Of a DNA stretch of 64,000 nt, positions 21,986 to 63,423 are shown piece by piece. Where the stretch lies: the NCBI GenBank assembly GCA_964016885.1, contig OZ024745.1, forward strand, positions 68,014,001 to 68,078,000. The letters run 5' to 3'. The DNA comes from Eledone cirrhosa. Its lineage: Eukaryota. The position numbers and the translations under genes were made by a program. Numbering within the stretch: position 1 is the stretch's first letter; the number at the start of each line of letters is the position of its first letter. Below the pieces are notes generated by a model, which saw only the letters and a program-made list of their open reading frames with translations, was not told where the DNA came from and made no database searches.

Positions 21986-22929
21986 CAAATATTTATCTAA
22001 AAACCTTCCATCATAATTTTATCTAAGAACCTTGATTAAGTTATGTTCCAAACACTAGCTTAATAATAAGAAAGGTAATTACAAATTCTTGAATATTTTG
22101 ACAATCATTTGGAAATAATTGGTCGTGCTTTTGCTTTAAAATATGGTAAGAAAAGATTTAATTTCAAACTCTGCTGCCAGGATCTGATTGTCAGATTAAT
22201 TGTCTTGCAATATTTGTTCTAGCTCTCTGAGTTCAAATCCTGCCGAGATCGATTTTGCAGTTCTTCTTTTCAGAGTCAATAAAGTATCAACTCAGAGGGG
22301 TGGATCGACAAATTGCTGGAAATTCGAACAGCATTTCATGTGGTATCTGTTTCGACTCATTGCGTTCTGAGTTCAAATTGTGCCCCCCCCCCTCCCCCGC
22401 GTCATCAATTAAAAGTTGATATGATAGAAGTGTGGCTCATACGAGATGCAACGGCATGTGAATGAATGGAAAATATTGTTTTAGTTCTGTAAAGTAACCG
22501 GTGAAAAATGTTATTCTTTTGAAATACAAGGTTGTCATATATGTAAAAAACAAGGTTGTCATATTTGTAAAAAAGTGCCAGGAAATTAAATTCGTTGAAA
22601 ATGAATGTATTTTTCAAGTAAATGCTGGAGAAACGTAAAGTAGAAAGTATGCACATAAACAACAAGCATCGGCAAAAACTTATGAGGACTCATACAAACT
22701 GTTACGCATGCATGCCAACACAAGAGCAAGAATGAATGGTTCATTCTACTGACATGGCTATAAAATTGAGGCTTGCTTGCATAATTGCAAACGAATCGAA
22801 TGTTATTATTAATATTCGAAAAACTCAGATTACATTTATTGTATTCAGCCATGTAGAGCGAAAAAGTTTTCTTTTTTATTTGAATTTGGCAAAGCCGGCC
22901 ATTTATCGCTCGTATACAGGAAACTGACT

Positions 22930-23030
22930 GGCCAGTCTGCTGATATGCAAATCTGGCCGATCAGTGGATCTGCTAATATGCAGATCTGACTGATCAGCCA
23001 GTCTGCTAATATGCAAATCAGGCCGATCAG
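22930..23030 (+). promoter_or_regulatory. Three 33-bp repeats, each with an octamer or near-octamer (ATGCAAAT 22945, ATGCAGAT 22978, ATGCAAAT 23011)
   Basis: Motifs read directly and largely retained in the 37.9 kb copy; function inferred. Confidence 0.45.
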
Positions 23031-23097
23031 TCACTGTGTATTTTTGAAAATAACATATATTTTCACTAGCCCTGACAGTTTGGCAGGTGAACAGTGA

Positions 23098-23143
23098 ACT
23101 GTACTGATTAAGGGTGATGCCCAGAAATATTAGTGTCTGCAGT
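23098..23143 (+). ncRNA. Hammerhead ribozyme motif (G8U in this copy)
   Basis: ACUGUA-CUGAUUA-AGGGugaugCCCA-GAAA-UAUUAGUGUC-UGCAGU; the sister copy has CUGAUGA but lacks stem II. Confidence 0.65.
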
Positions 23144-23514
23144 TCTGTTCACATGCCAACACAAGAGCAAGAATGAAGTGTTCATTCTACTGACATGGCT
23201 ATACAATTGAGGCTTGTTTGCATAATTGCAAACGAATCGAATGTTATTATTAATATAAAAAAAACTCAGATTACACACACATATATATATATATATATGT
23301 ACATAAAAAATATACTCAGACGCTTTGATTACCTGTACAGGCAATATTTATTAGAATGTTGTCATGTCGAATGTGCATTTCTCTCTCTCCAGATCTCTAA
23401 CGGAGAAAGAGAAAGCATTGAGAGAGAGAAAGAGAGAGTGAAATCGAATCCAGTGCTTGAGTGGTATTTCATTTATCGGTTTTGAAATGAAAAAATGCAT
23501 CGTTTTGCTGATAT

Positions 23515-23725
23515 AGGAACAATGCCAACAATTTTAGGGGAGAGAGAGAGGGGAAAGTCGATTAAATCTACCCGCGTGCATCACTGGTACTTTATTTTAT
23601 CGACTCTGTAAGGATGAAAGGCAAAGCTAACCTCGGCGGGATTTGAATTCCAAACGTAAATGGACGTAACTATATGTCGCAAAGAATGCTATCCGACACC
23701 CTACCGATACTGCCACTCCGCCATT
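23515..23725 (-). mobile_element. SINE S1
   Basis: Aligns with the 12.6 kb copy over its full length. Confidence 0.8.
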
Positions 23726-24888: not shown

Positions 24889-25422
24889 ATGTTCATCGAT
24901 GCAACCCCTAGAGGTGAATTAGCTTACAAATTTAGAAGGGCCCTAAATAAACATAAACTCAATATTAAGATAGTAGAAAGACCAGGTACCTCCGTAAAAA
25001 CACTTATTAGCAAGACATACCCTTTTCAAAGACCCTCATGTATAGATAAGAAATGTATAACCTGTAAAATAAGCCCCCATATTAACTGTAAAACTAGAAA
25101 TGTAGTGTATAGCATAAGATGTACTGAAGGACAATGTAGAGACAAAAATATAGTTTACATAGGTGAGACAGCTCGTAGTGTAGGGGAACGGATAAATGAA
25201 CACTGGCGAGACCTTCAAGATAGTAAAGAATCATCTGTACTCTACCAACATGCTAAAATAGAACACAAGGGTAAATTAGAGAACACAAAAATAAAAATAG
25301 AATCTACACACAGAAAAGACGCAATGTTTAGACAAATTACAGAGGCAATAAACATAAAAGAATTACAACCAAAATTAAATAGAAAATATGAGTGGAACAG
25401 CAACATCACAACTTACAATTAA
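24889..25422 (+). CDS. Penelope-like element GIY-YIG endonuclease, C-terminal part of a truncated ORF
   Basis: Cys-rich linker (CxxxxCxxC...C), NVVYSIRC...C...YIGET.R...R..EH, RQITEAI...LN; frame stays open about 16 codons upstream of the ATG. Confidence 0.85.
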   Translation: MFIDATPRGELAYKFRRALNKHKLNIKIVERPGTSVKTLISKTYPFQRPSCIDKKCITCKISPHINCKTRNVVYSIRCTEGQCRDKNIVYIGETARSVGERINEHWRDLQDSKESSVLYQHAKIEHKGKLENTKIKIESTHRKDAMFRQITEAINIKELQPKLNRKYEWNSNITTYN

Positions 25423-25623: not shown

Positions 25624-25666
25624 GTCACTGAAGAGGTCACAGAGTGTGTGACGAAAGAACTATGAC
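25624..25666 (+). ncRNA. Minimal hammerhead ribozyme in the PLE 3' repeat
   Basis: GUCA-CUGAAGA-gGUCACagaguguGUGAC-GAAA-GAACUA-UGAC; decayed homologs at about 57180 (+) and 42340-42385 (-). Confidence 0.75.
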
Positions 25667-37471: not shown

Positions 37472-37614
37472 GATATGAATATGCATGCCAATTCTAACAC
37501 ATATATATCCTAGAAACGATCGTTAAATAATGAACTTTTTTTGTTTAATATAAGGAACTGTCTCATTGTTTATTCATTATTTGTTTAATATTTTATATAT
37601 ATATATATATATAA

Positions 37615-37975
37615 TACATGTAATCCGAGTTTTTCGAATATTAATAATAACATTCGACTTGTTTGCAATTAAACAAACAAGCCTCATTTTTATAACCATG
37701 TCAGTAGAATGAACCCTTCATTCTTGCTCTTGTGTTGGCATGTAAATAGAACTGCAGACACTAATGTTTCTTCATCAGTACAACCCACTGTTCACCTGCC
37801 AACTGTCAGAGCTAGTGAAAATATATGCTATTCTCTAAAATATACAGTGACTGATCGGCCTGATTTGCATATTAGCAGACTGGCTGATAAGTCAGATCTT
37901 GCATATTAGCAGATCCACTGATCCGCCAGATTTGCATATCAGCAGACTGGCCAGTCAGTTTCCTGTATACGAGCG

Positions 37976-37978
<3 letters not shown>
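37615..37978 (-). mobile_element. Family D copy between TA tracts
   Basis: Reverse complement of about 22905-23275, ending at nearly the same point (ctc.gattaca). Confidence 0.85.
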
Positions 37979-40753: not shown

Positions 40754-40801
<48 letters not shown>

Positions 40802-42450
40802 TTGTAAATGTGTGTGTATATATATATATATGCATGTATACACACACACACACACACACACATATATGTATATAAAGATTTATAAAAATGAATATGAAAT
40901 GTTTCGGACTTTTGGGACAGAATGTCTTTATTTGAGAGGAAGAAAAGTGTCTGTTGCTTACAAAGAAGCGGTATTTAATTCATATTGAATACATGAAGAA
41001 TATCATTTAATAAGACGATATAATGTATACGAAAAGATATTGTTATTTAGATATTTTCGCTTCAAATTCAACTGTGAAGACTATATAATGCTATAATACT
41101 ATCAGCTTTTATGGCATTTTAAGAATGTGGTATTAATAGAGAATATTTTACCAACGACTATTCTAAGAAAAATCATTGATTTCGTGAACAATTTACCCAC
41201 AAGACAGCAACAGTCAATGACTTGAAGATATCATATGCATTGTATTGACATAGATATCATTTTACTACACATACAATCGGCTGCATAGATACGGGAGTAT
41301 TTACATATATCTAGAACAGAGATTCTGAACGTGATGCCCACGTCCCCCAGGGGAGCAATTTAAATATTTTGTGAGGAAATGCCACAATAAAAAAGATATA
41401 TTTCTCGTTTATGTGTGTACATTTAAAACAGTATTATTAAACTGTTTTTTTCTTAGTTATTTTCTAATTTTTTACTTATATCTTTTAAATACCAAACATC
41501 CTTTTATATTAAGGAGCTGATAAAAATATTTGCGGTGTCCTGGTGAGACATGAAGCGAAAGGCTTAAGAATAACTGTTGTAGAGTTTATAGTTTTCTTAT
41601 AAAAATGCATAAATATATCAGATCCTTGCTCATTCATTTACCTTATATGTTTGATATATATACACTTCTCTATAATATCATTATAATAGGTTTAACTATA
41701 ATATCACAGTAATAGGTTTACTTCCCAGAGAAATGAAAGGTTTCAGAAAGGTCAAATTCAGAAATACGACCTTATTTCATTTCAGAAGACATTAATAACT
41801 CAAACTGATATTATGCCAAAAATAATTTGTCATAAGTGTTTTTCTATTTTGTTTTGTAAAAAGTGTATGTCCATACATAATGAATGGTGTCTAATTTAGA
41901 CACACGACGATACATTTTGGGAGAGAGGAAGATAGATTATACTTCGGTATTTCATTGGTTCTACATTTCGTTGATCAGAAATAATGGACGTCAATGATGA
42001 CCCTGGCTGATATAAGTTGCAAGAGGTTTCTGTTTTATACATCAACAAAAGATATATAAATATTCTCCACACAGGATAGATTAAAAAAAAAATGTTAAAG
42101 GTTTGTGGATTTAGCCCCCATAGCACACTGTAAAACTATCATCGGGGTTTTATTTACACACAAGGAATGTATCAAATAATCATATAATTTTGCTAAACAA
42201 AGTCTGTACATACTTTTATATAGAATGAAATTATTGTTTAGCCCTAGGTCAGTTGTAAATGAGTGGACGTAGGATGATAGCTTTTTTTACGTCTTTGTAT
42301 CAGTTATCAGTTGGTTTTGCAACTAAATGGTTATTTAATTTTCAAAGTTCTTTTGTCACTCATTTTGTGACCTTCTCAATGACTATTTTGGACTTCTGTG
42401 CTTCCCCTTTTTTATTCTGTTCCAGATACACAAAAACATAACAATATATA

Positions 42451-43843: not shown

Positions 43844-44177
43844 ATATATATGTATATGTGTGTGTGTGTATGTATATATTTATATGTATGTATGTGTAGA
43901 TGTGTGTATTGCTTACCACGTGTGTTTGTAAACTTATTTATTTGTGTCCTTTCCTGTATCGCTGTCAACTTTATAATAATTTTTATTTTCTTAAGTCGTA
44001 TATTTTTTATTTTTATGTGACGGCCTATTGCATTATATGTTTGTTCATTGTTTTTTTTTTATTTTTTCTTATAATTAATTGTGTGGGTGCGTATGTAGGT
44101 GTATGTGCATATATATCTATATAAGTATGTGCGTGTATATATGTGTGTATGTATGTGTATGTACGTGTGTATATATA

Positions 44178-44222
<45 letters not shown>

Positions 44223-44371
44223 TCGATCACCAATACCATGAGCTTGCCATTCACGTAAGTCTGATATTTGATTTCGGATTCAAAGAAACACTTTAAACCA
44301 TTGTTCGTTTGATTTGTCCAGGTGTACTTTTCTCAACCTGATTAGTTCTATCGTTACTTTGGTATATAATG

Positions 44372-48367: not shown

Positions 48368-50218
48368 CTATAGTCTGATGTAGAGTGAAGGCCCATTCAC
48401 ACGGGCCATTCTCGCCACTTTCACCCATCTTTCATAAAAACGGCTGGGGTGCAGCTCCTCTCTCTCCATTCTGATCCTTCTTCCGAAATGATATCGGAAG
48501 AAACGGACCAGTTGTTGGCCAGAGAGAGCGGTGTCTGACCTCAGTCCTTTCAGACGCGTCCACCATACAACCTCTTTCGCCATGGCTATTACGCACAGAA
48601 ACACCGCCTCTTCTTCGTTTTTGAAGAGGGGAGGCGGCTTGATCGTTACAATAGACTCGGTGGTCAACCATATCGGTCCCACCCTTGACAGCAGTCGTTC
48701 GACATAGCCCCACAGATCGGTAATGCCCGAGCAGTGTACCAATGCGTGTGCAACGGTTTCCTCGTCGCACACGCATCTGGGACAGATCTTTTTCGAGGGG
48801 TCCCTACCCGGGCGCCCGTGTCTGTAGAGCCTTTCTCGAACGGGCAGAGCCCCTCGGTAGTACTGCCAAGCCAGCGACCTCTGGAAGTTATCCATGGGTC
48901 CCGGGCTGAATGTCCTACAGAACAGGTTGGCCAGTTCGTCTTCCTCCATGCCTAGGGCTTCTCTGAGGGCGTCGTCGCACCTGCTAACCACCAGCCCTCT
49001 ATAGAATGACGAGGTGGATTCTCCACTGACAGCCGGGTCCGCCTGCCAGAGAGCCGTGAGCGCCTGGGAACACTCGGTGTGCCAGGCGCCCAGTTTTCTC
49101 GCTCTTTGCTTGACCCAGGAATGCAGCTCGGTGAGCGAGACGAGTCTGGGAAAGGCTCGCCTCACAAACGGGGCCCACACCGGTTGACCGGTGAGGAATA
49201 CCTGGAGGTGCCGTAGCCTTAATGCGTGTTTACGCATCATCAGCCACGGCATCCCCAGCCATCCTTTTGAAGGGTGTTGACAGCAGATGGATCTCCTCAC
49301 CATAGGAGCCCGCTTCTTCCAAAGGAATTGGAAGAGCGCGCGCTCCATTTTGGCGAGCGTTTCCCTTGGGCAAGGCACGACGGTCAGGCGGTAGTAGATG
49401 ACGGACGCTATATAAGTGTTCGCCACCTCCGCCCGACCTTTCAGGGACAGTTTGCACTCGGCCCACTTCTGGGTCAGTGCAAATACCCTGTTCGTTACCT
49501 CACCCCTGTACTTCTCCACCTGGAGGTCTGGTCCTAACCAGACCCCGAGCAACTTCACCGGGCCCTCCGTCCAGCGTCCGACGACGCCATCGGAGGGCAT
49601 CGATTTGCCCCTCCACGTGCCGAGTTGCAGACCGATCGACTTGTCACGGTTCAGCTTAGCCCCTGTAAACCTTTCGTACTCCTTCAGTAAGGTGCCGATT
49701 GCCCCGATTTCCGAGGCCGTCGACACCATCACTGTTACGTCATCGGCGTAGGCAAACACCGCTTTCCGCAATCCCGCTTCCAACGGGATGCCCTGCAACA
49801 ACTCCAACTTACGCAACAGTGGCTCTAGAGTCACTACATACAGAAGAGAGGAGAGAGGGCACCATTGTCGGATGGACCGCGCGATTTCGAACGGCTCCGA
49901 GAGGTAGCCGTTCACCTTGACCCTAGAGCAGATGCGGCTGCGGTGCATGGCATTGATCCAGCCCCTGAAAGCGGGTCCGAAGCCTGCCGCCGCTAGCACC
50001 GCATCCAGGTAACCATGGTCGACCCTATCGAATGCCTTAGATTGATCCAAGTTGATCAGGGCCCGACCAAAGCCTGGTTCGTTCCCAACCCTCTCTATGA
50101 TGTATCGCATGAGGTGGAGGTTGTCGTGGATGGACCTGGACGGGATAGCACATGTCTGCGCATCTCCCACCAGGTTGCCCACGACATGCGCCAACATCTT
50201 TGCTAGCACCTTGGCCAA
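48368..50218 (-). pseudogene. ORF2 reverse transcriptase and C-terminal CCHC finger
   Basis: LDQSKAFDRVDH, IRQWCPLS, AYADDV, KLLGV, LSLKGR, CPRC...ETVAHALVHC; the upstream RPITLLN motif lies in another frame. Confidence 0.93.
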
Positions 50219-56680: not shown

Positions 56681-56751
56681 TGACGTACATGGGAGTCGAA
56701 CTCACATCTTTCGTTATCCAGACCACTGTGCTACCATTACACCAACACATC
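56681..56751 (-). mobile_element. tRNA-like SINE head or tRNA pseudogene
   Basis: Reverse complement gatgtgttggtgtaatggtagcac...gtgagttcgactcccatgtacgtca; anticodon stem does not pair. Confidence 0.55.
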
Positions 56752-61987: not shown

Positions 61988-62427
61988 ATACCTTCCTGCC
62001 AGATGATTGAACGTCTGAAAGTATATACTTTCCTTATGCATATTAACGGCTGAGCAGCCTAATTTGCAACGATGGTTGCTAAACACTGTACGGCTTAATT
62101 CGGGATGTTTATTTACAACCATCCCGAGCATTATAATAAATGTTCGGTGAATCCATACGTACATATATATGTGTGCATGTATGTATATATATATATACAT
62201 ACTACTGTACGTCTGTATACATATATGTATGTACGTATACATACTTATATTTAAGTAACAGCCGTACTAAGAGTGAGAAATGAAATTTCGTTTCATTTTT
62301 TCCATTTATCGTTTTCGGTGCGCCCGGCCGATTAACTCACTCGATATGCAAATTAGGCTGCTCAGCCGTTAATATGCATAAGGAAAGTATATACTTTCAG
62401 GCGTTCAATCATCTGGCAAGAAGGTAT

Positions 62428-62470
62428 ACGGTGCTGACGATAGCTAATAAGCTTGAAACTAGTACATCGT
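62428..62470 (+). ncRNA. Minimal hammerhead ribozyme (family N)
   Basis: ACGGUG-CUGACGA-uAGCUaauaAGCUu-GAAA-CUAGUA-CAUCGU. Confidence 0.85.
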
Positions 62471-63215: not shown

Positions 63216-63423
63216 TAACGAAGGAAATGTGGTAAGGAACCAGGTGGACCATAACGCACCAAAGTACTCAATACTTAGGGTAGTAGAGTGGGTAATAGGA
63301 ACGACTAGGATCCCGACGGCTGAGCCCAAGCCGTTTCGACGGCTAATTTAAAAAAAAAAAATTTTTTTTAGTCCAGAATTAGCCGTCGAAACGGCTTGAG
63401 CTCAGCCGTCGGGGTCCTACTTG

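What the first reader, a model, noticed from the sequence alone, without database searches (positions are those of the whole stretch)
22711..23275. Family D: 441-nt HHR monomer with three octamer repeats, echoing newt satellite 2
Seen: three 33-bp repeats with ATGCAAAT, ATGCAGAT and ATGCAAAT lie 80-150 nt upstream of the HHR and persist in the 37.6-38.0 kb copy. Unrelated family N also has ATGCAAAT (62346-62353) about 75 nt upstream of its HHR. Known: newt satellite 2, a tandem HHR repeat, is transcribed from an snRNA-type promoter that includes an octamer. Inference: these monomers may carry their own internal snRNA-like promoter. I could not identify a PSE.
Basis: partly seen in the sequence, partly recalled or inferred. 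Interest (0 to 1): 0.72.

Follow-up and report, generated by a model that had tools for sequence, protein, structure and literature searches.

The report
Ribozyme repeat with U6-type promoter box
This is a slightly broken copy of a young, protein-free jumping repeat that carries a self-cutting-RNA motif, and its third "octamer" matches the box that stands in front of the host's own U6-type genes, so it likely (not yet tested) lets the repeat switch itself on.

Summary
Two direct repeats lie 441 bases apart, with three 33-bp repeats carrying ATGCAAAT, ATGCAGAT and ATGCAAAT. A second copy lies at 37.6-38.0 kb.

Family D is a young non-coding repeat. An 18-mer from its terminal repeat occurs 5,294 times in the genome, and one from its promoter-like block 1,895 times. 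Its layout is that of a retrozyme copied in by Penelope-type elements: fixed 3' ends merging into (TA)n, partial tandems and head-to-head inverted copies.

Both hammerheads in the window are mutated. The family majority restores the core, but has an A/A at the base of helix II. Rfam does not call it.

In this host, ATGCAAAT-N-AG lies at -76 to -78, with a TATA box at -30, in 5 of 5 U6, U6atac and RNase MRP genes. It is absent from 26 U1/U2/U4/U5 upstream regions. So the octamer is the core of the proximal element, not a distal enhancer as in the newt.

Only the third D octamer (ATGCAAATCAGG) fits. TATATTTT follows 45 bases later, and the predicted start lies at the foot of the ribozyme. This block is the only part that D shares with family N.

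Transcription is untested, because no RNA run was listed. Earlier notes of this scan report the same cassette in other families of this genome.

The parts
22711..23151 (+). One full 441-nt unit of family D (unit positions 1-441)
   Evidence: Direct-repeat spacing is 441 nt. The top 40 scored genomic copies are 94-96% identical over positions 1-441.
23152..23275 (+). Partial second unit (positions 1-124). With 22711-22834 it forms the pseudo-LTR-like direct repeat. The element ends here, against (CA)3(TA)n.
   Evidence: The 3' end lies at unit position 129 in 16 of 30 copies and at 124 in 2, one of which is this copy.
22867..22877 (+). TTTTCTTTTTT run (unit positions 157-167). It would be a Pol III terminator, and it is the site of the alternative element end at about position 169.
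   Evidence: Sequence. A T>=5 run is present in 28 of 30 copies, and the 3' end lies at 169 in 5 of 30.
22923..23021 (+). Three tandem 33-bp repeats, each partly palindromic
   Evidence: family D2. The region folds as one long hairpin.
22945..22952 (+). Octamer 1, ATGCAAAT, followed by CTGG. It lacks the host's N-AG extension.
22978..22985 (+). Octamer-like 2, ATGCAGAT, followed by CTGA. The G completes a perfect palindrome, AGATCTGC/GCAGATCT.
23011..23022 (+). Octamer 3 plus CAGG (ATGCAAATCAGG). It matches the proximal box of the host's U6, U6atac and RNase MRP genes.
23056..23063 (+). TATA-like box TATATTTT. It starts 45 nt after the start of octamer 3, against 46-48 nt in the host genes.
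23086..23086 (+). Predicted transcription start: a G lying 30 nt after the TATA start, as in 5 of 5 host genes. Inferred, not mapped.
   Evidence: Spacing rule, applied to the sequence.
23078..23160 (+). Type I hammerhead-like motif. Helix I 5' strand is 23078-23103, the core CTGATTA is 23104-23110, helix II is 23112-23122, GAAA is 23124-23127, and helix III runs to 23136. Predicted cleavage follows C23137. Helix I 3' strand is 23138-23160. This copy has three private changes that damage the motif.
   Evidence: The family majority restores the motif: 23109 T>G, 23119 G>A and 23128 T>C. A fold with the core held unpaired gives three helices. Rfam gives no match.
37609..37978 (-). Second, 5'-truncated copy (unit positions 194-441 plus 1-134), flanked by (TA)n on both sides. 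Helix II of its hammerhead is deleted. Octamer 3 and TATA are intact.
62346..62470 (+). Family N cassette: ATGCAAATTAGG, TATATA 42 nt later (62388), GGCAAG, then hammerhead core CTGACGA at 62434. A T6 run lies upstream at 62296-62301.

Best explanation
Family D is a young, non-coding, high-copy repeat whose 441-base unit carries a hammerhead-like motif, and whose third octamer, with a TATA box 45 bases further on, likely acts as a U6-type promoter (predicted RNA polymerase III) that would start transcription at the foot of the ribozyme.

Shown by the sequence and the calls:
- The unit is laid out in this order: oligo(T) run (unit 157-167), three 33-bp repeats (213-311), ATGCAAATCAGG (301-312), TATATTTT (346-353), GGCAG (372-376), the hammerhead-like motif (368-441, running on into 1-9), and a body that ends at TTTAT (position 129 or about 169) against (TA)n.
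- The same box, ATG(C/G)(A/T)AAT-N-AG, lies at -76 to -78 with TATA at -30 in the host's U6, U6atac and RNase MRP genes.
- Copies show fixed 3' ends, a cluster of 5' ends just 3' of the predicted cleavage site, partial tandems and head-to-head inverted copies.

Inferred:
- Transcription would start near 23086.
- The RNA would cut itself after C427.
- Most Pol III transcripts would stop at the oligo(T) of the next unit (233 nt; 52 + 181 nt after cutting).
- Rarer read-through transcripts with two ribozymes would give unit-length RNA that folds into a rod.
- A Penelope-type reverse transcriptase would copy these RNAs into (TA)n tracts.
- Octamers 1 and 2 are duplicates of the promoter module. 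They lack the N-AG extension, and mainly build the long RNA hairpin.
For: Host promoters:
- The octamer-N-AG lies at -76, -77, -78, -77 and -77, with TATA at -30, in 5 of 5 genes: U6 at L031 and L032, the U6 array at L033, U6atac at L111 and RNase MRP at L117.
- It is found in 0 of 26 U1/U2/U4/U5 upstream regions and in 0 of 14 U6 hits that lack a shared promoter.

Family D cassette:
- ATGCAAATCAGG starts at 23011 and TATATTTT at 23056, 45 nt later. TATA + 30 falls on G23086, inside GGCAG at the outer part of helix I.
- All four matches to octamer (at most 1 mismatch) + N-AGG in the window belong to D or N. All four have TATA 42-45 nt downstream and a hammerhead-like motif after it.
- In the genome the cassette pattern occurs 23,855 times, against 27 for the reversed control.
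- blastn of a D unit against an N dimer finds only one significant block: D positions 299-399, from octamer 3 to CTGATGA, at 63% over 101 nt, E=1e-5. Identity is concentrated in ATATGCAAAT-AGGC, the TATA box, TGGCAG and CTGATGA.
- A T>=5 run lies 233 nt downstream of the predicted start in 28 of 30 copies. N has the same order, with a T6 run 50 nt before its octamer.

Retrozyme and Penelope-type features:
- Of the 30 loci, the 3' end lies at position 129 in 16 and at 169 in 5. (TA)>=4 follows within 24 nt in 22.
- The 5' boundary lies at positions 431-438 in 11 of 30, where about 0.5 would be expected if ends were uniform.
- Inverted partial copies lie at the 5' side.
- About 20 head-to-head pairs occur among the first 100 listed matches of the terminal 18-mer.
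- The unit RNA folds at -172.7 kcal/mol, z = -11.55.
- These are the features listed for Penelope-like elements in PMC8557442 (passages), and for metazoan retrozymes in PMC7229834 (passages).
Against: - No expression data. No listed run is on record as RNA, so the start site, the polymerase and the self-cleavage are all untested.
- The octamer-to-TATA spacing is 45 nt in D, 42 in N and 43 in X1/X2. The host genes have 46-48.
- The second half of the host box (CCTAT) is absent from D.
- RNase P RNA, also expected to be a Pol III gene, has no octamer. It has an ATCAGTGG box 33 nt before its TATA. The octamer box is therefore not universal for that class, and the polymerase assignment is uncertain.
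- The oligo(T) run inside the unit would stop Pol III before the promoter region (168-375) is transcribed. Propagation of complete units therefore needs read-through or another polymerase.
- Inside the family the octamers are no better kept than their flanks: 0.970-0.987 against 0.970.
- GGCAG is part of helix I, so its conservation needs no promoter.
- Families X1 and X2 were found with the cassette pattern itself, so their agreement is by construction.
- Rfam's hammerhead models do not match even intact copies. The base of helix II is A/A instead of G-C.
Confidence: 0.6

Rival explanations
1. The 33-bp repeats serve RNA structure only. They are partly palindromic units that build a long hairpin in the rod-like retrozyme RNA. 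On this view the likeness of the octamer to the host box is a relic or chance, with no role in transcription.
For: - Positions 22923-23031 fold as one long hairpin (the MIR6019-like match is far below gathering).
- In the unit fold the three repeats form a single extended stem, and the whole RNA has z = -11.55.
- The A-to-G change in octamer 2 makes a perfect palindrome.
- Octamers 1 and 2 lack the N-AG extension.
- Conservation inside the family is not raised.
Against: - This does not explain why the third repeat matches 11 of 12 positions of the host box.
- It does not explain why a TATA box follows at nearly the host distance, or why TATA + 30 falls at the foot of the ribozyme.
- It does not explain why this block is the only part shared with family N, which has no 33-bp triplication.
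- The chance expectation for the cassette is about 27 per genome, both strands counted.
Confidence: 0.22
2. This is a newt-satellite-2-type promoter. The octamers would be distal enhancer elements for an Oct-type factor, a separate PSE would lie downstream, and RNA polymerase II would transcribe the unit.
For: - Three octamer-like sites lie in tandem.
- ATCAGT boxes in the repeats resemble the host's U1/U2/U4/U5 box: ATCAGTGGATCT at 22960, and ATCAGTCACTG at 23026, which is 30 nt before the TATA.
- Newt satellite 2 is cited as having a snRNA-type Pol II promoter (PMC2220036 passage; PMC6765202 passage).
Against: - Host Pol II-type snRNA genes have no octamer in 26 of 26 upstream regions. No conserved distal octamer was seen upstream of the U6-type genes.
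- A weight matrix built from 17 host boxes scores the D boxes at 8.2 and 5.2 bits, and 10.5 in copy 2. Sixteen of the 17 real sites score 12-24 bits; the doubtful U4 site L097 scores 5.0. Hits of at least 8 bits occur 30 times in the window, or about 0.2 per unit.
- The box-to-TATA spacing is 30 nt in D against 26-28 in the host genes.
- The AATTAAAT element is absent.
Confidence: 0.1
3. There is no internal promoter. Copies would be transcribed only by read-through from neighbouring genes or from autonomous Penelope-like elements, and the cassette would be inert.
For: The papers read describe no promoter for invertebrate retrozymes. In PMC7229834 the word 'promoter' appears only for T7. The 2026 preprint has no occurrence of it. 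A GIY-YIG ORF fragment lies 1.6 kb downstream of the D copy.
Against: The same points that count against rival 1. In addition, D shows no similarity to that fragment or to anything else in the window apart from its own two copies.
Confidence: 0.08

Closest known systems
Metazoan non-LTR retrozymes (coral, mussel, axolotl; Cervera and de la Pena 2020, PMC7229834, passages read; Li, Clavereau and Pollet 2026 preprint 10.64898/2026.07.22.740005, abstract and passages read)
   Same: Family D is a non-coding repeat of a few hundred bases with a type I hammerhead motif. It has low GC (0.388) and a highly self-paired unit RNA, and it sits in a genome that also holds Penelope-like elements. A mismatch at the base of helix II has a precedent there: U/U in axolotl HHR_Amex2.
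   Different: Family D occurs mostly as about 1.3 units with pseudo-LTR-like ends and inverted heads, not as long arrays. Those papers describe no promoter, whereas here each unit holds a copy of the host's U6-type proximal box and a TATA box. Circular RNA was not tested here.
Newt satellite 2 (Coats, Zhang and Epstein 1994; paper not held, known here only through citing passages in PMC2220036 and PMC6765202)
   Same: It is a hammerhead-bearing repeat that is said to carry its own snRNA-type promoter inside the unit.
   Different: The newt promoter is cited as driving Pol II. In D the octamer is the core of the proximal box of the host's U6-type genes. A TATA box and a downstream oligo(T) point to Pol III.
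Schistosome Sm-alpha / Sj-alpha SINE-like hammerhead elements (review passage in PMC6765202; Ferbeyre 1998 not held)
   Same: These are hammerhead repeats transcribed by Pol III. After cleavage the promoter ends up at the 3' part of the RNA unit, so single units cannot propagate and tandems are needed. The same logic applies to D.
   Different: That the schistosome promoter is a gene-internal (tRNA-like) type is my recollection. D has an upstream-type PSE/TATA cassette like U6.
Penelope-like elements (Craig et al. 2021, PMC8557442, passages read)
   Same: Shared features are 5' truncation, partial tandems forming pseudo-LTRs, an inverted 5'-truncated copy at the 5' side, insertion bias for (TA)n, and a hammerhead in the repeated end.
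   Different: Family D encodes no protein, and it shows no sequence likeness to the GIY-YIG fragment in this window. Which autonomous element would copy it was not identified.

Membership tests
Hammerhead ribozyme, type I | Conserved core: C3 U4 G5 A6 N7 G8 A9, G12 A13 A14, the A15.1-U16.1 pair, and H17 at the cleavage site | tested here: met
   Met in the family majority, which reads CTGATGA ... GAAAC ... GTC. CTGATGA..GAAAC is present in 25 of 30 copies. It is not met in the window's own two copies: one has G8 to U plus two further changes, and the other lacks helix II.
Hammerhead ribozyme, type I | G10.1-C11.1 pair at the base of helix II | tested here: not met
   The family majority has A opposite A around GGGU/ACCC. 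N has U opposite U. A U/U precedent exists in axolotl HHR_Amex2 (PMC7229834 passage).
Hammerhead ribozyme, type I | Three helices around the core, with helix I open | tested here: met
   A fold with the core held unpaired gives a long helix I, a 4-bp helix II and a 3-bp helix III with a tetraloop, at -33.1 kcal/mol. A competing MFE fold scores -39.3.
Hammerhead ribozyme, type I | Match to a curated covariance model (Rfam hammerhead clan) | tested here: not met
   No hammerhead match was found at gathering, at E<=10 on 22300-23700, at E<=1 on three loci with intact copies, or at E<=10 on 111 nt with an intact core.
Hammerhead ribozyme, type I | Self-cleavage | not testable with these tools
   There is only an indirect hint: 11 of 30 copies have their 5' boundary 4-11 nt 3' of the predicted site.
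Metazoan non-LTR retrozyme | Non-coding tandem unit of 150-450 bp with low GC and a type I hammerhead in each unit | tested here: inconclusive
   The unit is 441 bp with GC 0.388 and carries the hammerhead-like motif. The usual form, however, is about 1.3 units rather than an array, and the motif is not canonical.
Metazoan non-LTR retrozyme | Unit RNA highly self-paired; expressed as circular RNA | tested here: inconclusive
   Self-pairing is met (z = -11.55). Circular RNA could not be tested.
Penelope-type insertion | Fixed 3' end, 5' truncation, partial tandem (pseudo-LTR), inverted 5' copy, (TA)n target | tested here: met
   The feature list is taken from PMC8557442.
Host U6-type (type 3 Pol III-like) promoter | Proximal box ATG(C/G)(A/T)AAT-N-AG at about -77 | tested here: met
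   ATGCAAATCAGG at 23011 lies 75 nt before the predicted start. The host has the box in 5 of 5 genes. Octamers 1 and 2 do not meet it: they are followed by N-TG.
Host U6-type (type 3 Pol III-like) promoter | TATA box at -30, 46-48 nt after the start of the box | tested here: inconclusive
   TATATTTT is present, but at 45 nt. That is 1 nt short of the host range.
Host U6-type (type 3 Pol III-like) promoter | Oligo(T) terminator downstream of the start | tested here: met
   TTTTCTTTTTT lies at unit 157-167, 233 nt after the predicted start. It is present in 28 of 30 copies.
Host U6-type (type 3 Pol III-like) promoter | Transcription by Pol III from the predicted start | not testable with these tools
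   No RNA run was listed.
Newt satellite 2-type snRNA (Pol II) promoter | Host Pol II-type PSE plus a distal octamer enhancer | tested here: not met
   The D boxes score 5.2-10.5 bits, whereas 16 of 17 host sites score 12-24. Host Pol II-type genes carry no octamer (0 of 26). The defining features themselves are recalled, because Coats 1994 is not held.

The most novel reading that the evidence does not exclude
A whole superfamily of ribozyme repeats in this animal (D, N and at least two more sequence types, about 24,000 cassettes in all) has taken over the proximal box and TATA box of the host's U6-type genes. Each unit is then a self-contained small Pol III gene whose transcript begins at the ribozyme and ends at an oligo(T). 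Family D has triplicated the box-bearing module, so that one DNA segment serves both as promoter and as the main stem of the RNA.
Probability: 0.5. Interest if true: 0.72.

Novelty: new variant of a known kind. Interest (0 to 1): 0.58.

Why it matters
How animal retrozymes get transcribed is not addressed in the papers read here. In PMC7229834 the word 'promoter' is used only for T7. The 2026 preprint does not use it at all. A search for 'retrozyme' together with 'polymerase III' returned two papers, and neither title is on animal retrozymes.

If each unit carries the host's own U6-type promoter, three things would follow. It would explain why such repeats stay active wherever they land. It would predict defined RNA products: a 52-nt leader with a 5'-triphosphate, and a 181-nt body with a 5'-hydroxyl. 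And it would make the question testable with one reporter construct and one 5'-end library.

The work also yields a first description of this host's snRNA promoter classes, which is useful for designing guide-RNA or shRNA expression in this animal group.

Tried and rejected
- RNA evidence: the look-up of sequencing runs listed no RNA holder. The four runs laid are contigs that look like genomic DNA. They gave only majority letters and junctions to (TA)n, with no starts or ends.
- Rfam at the E-value threshold over the whole window was swamped by microsatellite-driven miRNA matches. No hammerhead was among the 150 rows shown, and 173 rows were not shown.
- A first script to find U6 starts with a recalled U6 motif printed nothing. 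It was replaced by using the coordinates of the Rfam matches.
- A weight matrix of the host's Pol II-type box gave only weak scores on D. I therefore do not claim the ATCAGT boxes as a PSE.
- Conservation of the octamers inside the family gave no signal, and I judged the test to have no power.
- Families X1 and X2 were found with the cassette pattern, so they are not counted as independent support.
- Coats 1994 (PMC308520) and Ferbeyre 1998 (PMC108972) are not held.
- blastn of D against the window found nothing beyond its own two copies, so there is no link to the GIY-YIG fragment.
- A look-up of earlier scan findings by the D sequence found nothing. A seven-word look-up also found nothing.
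- The last own-genome search (RNase P) did not add a sixth octamer gene. It gave an exception, which is reported in the Against line.
Full report
WHAT IS THERE

The window lies at G000:C5:68014001-68078000, in a 3.0-Gb animal genome. Positions 22711-23275 hold 1.28 units of a repeat. A 124-nt stretch (22711-22834) recurs at 23152-23275 with 94% identity and a spacing of 441 nt. Inside the unit, three copies starting at 22923, 22956 and 22989 are spaced 33 nt apart. They carry ATGCAAAT (22945), ATGCAGAT (22978) and ATGCAAAT (23011).

A second copy lies on the minus strand at 37609-37978. It is 5'-truncated (unit positions 194-441 plus 1-134) and is flanked by (TA)n on both sides. It keeps octamers 1 and 3; the middle one has one extra base.

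The bare octamer is not enriched in the window: 8 matches against 5.46 expected, and 18 of 100 shuffles reach 8.

THE RIBOZYME

By eye the unit holds a type I hammerhead. Its parts are:
- helix I 5' strand, 23078-23103;
- core, 23104-23110;
- helix II, 23112-23122;
- GAAA, 23124-23127;
- a 3-bp helix III with a tetraloop;
- predicted cleavage after C23137;
- helix I 3' strand, 23138-23160.

The window's copy is damaged. It reads CTGATTA (G8 to U), has a G in place of the helix II partner, and reads GAAAT. Copy 2 has lost helix II.

The family majority restores all three positions: 23109 T>G, 23119 G>A and 23128 T>C. This holds in nearly all contig depth of two runs and in the 29 other copies aligned. 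CTGATGA..GAAAC is present in 25 of 30 copies.

With the core held unpaired, the RNA folds into the three helices at -33.1 kcal/mol. A competing fold scores -39.3.

Two points count against a canonical hammerhead. First, the base of helix II is A opposite A, not G-C. Second, Rfam gives no hammerhead match:
- at gathering over the window;
- at E<=10 over 22300-23700;
- at E<=1 over three loci with intact copies;
- at E<=10 over 111 nt with an intact core.

A U/U mismatch at that place is described for axolotl HHR_Amex2, which cleaves weakly as a monomer and well as a dimer (PMC7229834, passage).

Indirect support for cleavage comes from the copy ends. In 11 of 30 copies the 5' boundary lies at unit positions 431-438, which is 4-11 nt after the predicted site. 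Uniform truncation would give about 0.5 (ungapped extension, so a few boundaries are approximate).

WHAT KIND OF ELEMENT

The genome search gave 3,514 first-look candidates. Forty were scored, and the full-length ones are 94-96% identical. An 18-mer of the terminal repeat occurs 5,294 times, and an 18-mer of the octamer-3 block 1,895 times. The reversed controls gave 0.

The 30 loci fetched are the best-scoring ones, so they are biased towards full units. In them:
- the 3' end lies at unit position 129 (...ACATTTAT) in 16 and at about 169 (...TTTTCTTTT(TT)AT) in 5, so both ends fall on TTTAT;
- 22 of 30 are followed within 24 nt by (TA)>=4;
- upstream of the full unit there is either a further partial unit in tandem or an inverted partial copy;
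- among the first 100 listed matches of the terminal 18-mer, about 20 pairs are head-to-head inverted at 170-680 nt.

The unit RNA (L017:1515-1954, minus strand) folds at -172.7 kcal/mol. One hundred shuffles average -108.2, giving z = -11.55. GC is 0.388. No ORF of 130 aa or more overlaps the element.

These are the traits listed for Penelope-like elements: 5' truncation, partial tandems forming pseudo-LTRs, an inverted 5'-truncated copy, (TA)n bias and a hammerhead in the repeated end (PMC8557442, passages). They also fit animal non-LTR retrozymes (PMC7229834, passages; preprint 10.64898/2026.07.22.740005, abstract and passages).

I therefore file family D as a retrozyme-type, Penelope-style mobilised repeat. 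The copying enzyme is inferred, not identified.

THE PROMOTER QUESTION

U1, U2, U4 and U5 genes share three elements: AATTAA(A/T)T at about -90, (A)ATCAGTG(G/A)-T-T at about -57, and a TATA-like box at about -30. None of the 26 upstream regions has an octamer-N-AG between -120 and -40.

The U6-type genes differ. Two dispersed U6 genes, the U6 tandem array, the best U6atac gene and the single RNase MRP gene all carry ATG(C/G)(A/T)AAT-N-AG. It starts at -76, -77, -78, -77 and -77, with TATA at -30. The box-to-TATA distance is 46-48 nt.

Fourteen further U6 hits have no shared upstream motif and look like retrocopies; 0 of the 14 has the box. No conserved distal octamer was seen upstream of the five genes.

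One exception must be stated. The single RNase P RNA gene has no octamer. It has AATCAGTGGCGG 33 nt before TATATAA.

In family D only the third repeat fits this box:
- ATGCAAATCAGG starts at 23011, and TATATTTT starts 45 nt later at 23056.
- TATA + 30 falls on G23086, the last base of GGCAG. That is 18 nt before the ribozyme core and inside the outer part of helix I.
- Octamers 1 and 2 are followed by CTGG and CTGA, not N-AG.

Family N at 62346 has the same order: ATGCAAATTAGG, TATATA 42 nt later, GGCAAG, and CTGACGA at 62434.

In the window, the scan for the octamer (at most 1 mismatch) followed by N-AG gave six matches. The four that read N-AGG belong to D or N, and all four have TATA at 42-45 nt and a hammerhead-like motif after it. 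The other two (31187, and 23223 on the minus strand) have neither.

Genome-wide, ATGCAAATNAGG-N28-36-TATAWW occurs 23,855 times, against 27 for the reversed control. The listed matches are N-type (two subtypes), D-type and a few other types. I named the latter X1 (L148, L150, L151) and X2 (L149).

A blastn of a D unit against an N dimer finds one significant block only. It covers D positions 299-399, from two bases before octamer 3 to the end of CTGATGA, at 63% over 101 nt with E=1e-5. The rest of the units is unrelated. Within that block, identity is concentrated in ATATGCAAAT-AGGC, the TATA box, TGGCAG and CTGATGA.

The within-family form shows nothing: 0.970-0.987 for the octamers against 0.970 for the unit. 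X1 and X2 agree too, but they were found with the pattern, so they do not count as independent.

DOWNSTREAM SIGNALS

The unit has TTTTCTTTTTT at positions 157-167, and a T>=5 run is present in 28 of 30 copies. In N, a T6 run lies 50 nt before the octamer.

Each unit thus reads like a small Pol III gene with its promoter in the spacer: terminator, promoter region, start, ribozyme, body, terminator. For D the predicted primary transcript is 233 nt (unit 376-441 plus 1-167). The ribozyme would cut it into a 52-nt leader and a 181-nt body.

The body part (428-441 plus 1-129/169) is the part in excess in the genome. The 18-mer ratio is 2.8 to 1, where 2 to 1 is expected from the 1.3-unit form alone. 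That fits frequent copying of this short RNA.

WEAK POINTS
- Nothing about transcription is shown. The run search listed no RNA holder, and the laid contigs cannot show starts.
- The box-to-TATA spacing is 1 nt (D) to 4-6 nt (N, X1, X2) shorter than in the host genes.
- The second half of the host box (CCTAT) is missing.
- RNase P shows that the octamer box is not universal among expected Pol III genes.
- A Pol III that stops at the internal oligo(T) never transcribes positions 168-375, yet full units with the promoter have spread to at least 1,895 places. Read-through or another polymerase is needed for that step. I cannot decide between them.
- GGCAG is explained by helix I alone.
- The ATCAGT boxes in the repeats resemble the host's Pol II-type box, but they score only 5.2-10.5 bits where 16 of 17 real sites score 12-24. 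About 0.2 hits of at least 8 bits are expected per unit. I do not claim them.

COMPARISON WITH WHAT IS KNOWN

Newt satellite 2 is cited as a hammerhead repeat with an internal snRNA-type promoter that drives Pol II (PMC2220036 passage; PMC6765202 passage). The original paper is not held, so its element layout is recalled only.

The schistosome SINE-like hammerhead elements are cited as Pol III-transcribed. Their promoter ends up in the 3' part of the cleaved RNA, so tandems are needed to propagate (PMC6765202 passage). The same logic applies to D.

For invertebrate retrozymes, the papers I read name no promoter. A search for 'retrozyme' with 'polymerase III' returned two papers, and neither title is on animal retrozymes. 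A four-term search with 'U6 promoter' and 'proximal sequence element' listed no paper holding 'retrozyme' among its ten rows.

Family D therefore works like newt satellite 2 in principle: a self-promoted ribozyme repeat. It fails that promoter's recalled definition and instead fits the host's U6-type class, with one near miss in spacing.

EARLIER NOTES OF THIS SCAN

A look-up shows that other agents reported the same octamer-TATA-GGCAG-ribozyme-oligo(T) cassette and Penelope-type ends in other repeat families of this genome. Those notes call the animal a cephalopod; I did not verify the organism. I had derived the U6 match and the spacing for D before reading them, and I tested D and N here myself. 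Family D itself was not in the index. These notes are leads, not support.

VERDICT

The element is a new member of a known kind, the retrozyme. The promoter reading is a new variant. The octamer is likely the proximal box of a U6-type promoter, and only the third one is in register. The other two are duplicates that mainly build the RNA hairpin.

Confidence is about 0.9 for the element class, about 0.6 for a working internal promoter, and lower for Pol III specifically.

Noticed in passing
L148, L150, L151 (G000:C1 near 11.88, 30.46 and 31.28 Mb): Family X1 has TTGACAA where the hammerhead core CTGATGA is expected. That means C3 to U together with G8 to A, in all three copies seen. In the active hammerhead C3 and G8 pair (recalled), so this may be a natural compensating double change rather than decay.
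   Followed up: no
window 24889-25422 (+), 25628-25656 (+), 27906-27870 (-): An ORF of 177 aa matches the GIY-YIG catalytic domain (Pfam 22.8 bits, cut-off 22.6). A minimal hammerhead-like motif follows it, CTGAAGA-stem-GAAA with a G-C base pair, and a similar motif lies inverted 2.2 kb on. This looks like a 5'-truncated Penelope-like element. It has no similarity to family D.
   Followed up: partly
G000 loci L043-L110, L152: The host's snRNA promoter classes differ. U1/U2/U4/U5 have AATTAAAT (-90), ATCAGTG (-57) and TATA (-30). U6, U6atac and MRP have the octamer-N-AG (-77) and TATA (-30). RNase P RNA has the ATCAGTGG box 33 nt before its TATA. All classes carry a TATA-like box, so polymerase choice may depend on box type or spacing.
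   Followed up: partly
G000:C19:31.78-31.84 Mb; C2:180.97 Mb and C1128; C3:307.35-307.45 Mb; C9:32.79-32.83 Mb; C1:136.38-136.49 Mb: The snRNA genes stand in long tandem arrays. Approximate periods are 1.8 kb for U6, 2.67 kb for U1, 2.2 kb for U2 and 0.87 kb for U5. U4 is spaced irregularly, at about 5 kb.
   Followed up: no
L115 (G000:C19:7531494-7531617): A U6atac-like copy lies directly against an inverted family D copy, so the D promoter region on the other strand runs up to its first base. It is probably a retrocopy inserted at the same (TA)n or D site.
   Followed up: no
L019 (G000:C2:297.59 Mb): This D copy lacks the whole ribozyme core between the two strands of helix I, which are joined directly.
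   Followed up: no
L017, 5' junction: A run of about 30 T lies between (TA)n and the 5'-truncated upstream unit of a D copy.
   Followed up: no
window 48368-50218 (-): An ORF of 616 aa carries RVT_1 (E=4.8e-18) and zf-RVT. It is a LINE-type reverse transcriptase fragment.
   Followed up: no
window, many places (for example 40801-40871, 44155-44225, 63305-63420): (TA)n and (TG)n microsatellites give dozens of sub-threshold miRNA matches in Rfam (mir-297, mir-3149, MIR5070). These are artefacts of simple repeats. The only match above gathering is a tRNA at 56681-56751 (-).
   Followed up: partly
run X4 (organism B), contig over window 22883-23118: A run labelled as a different organism holds a 238-nt contig only 5 letters different from D positions 173-408. 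The family, or a close relative of it, may therefore occur in a second species.
   Followed up: no
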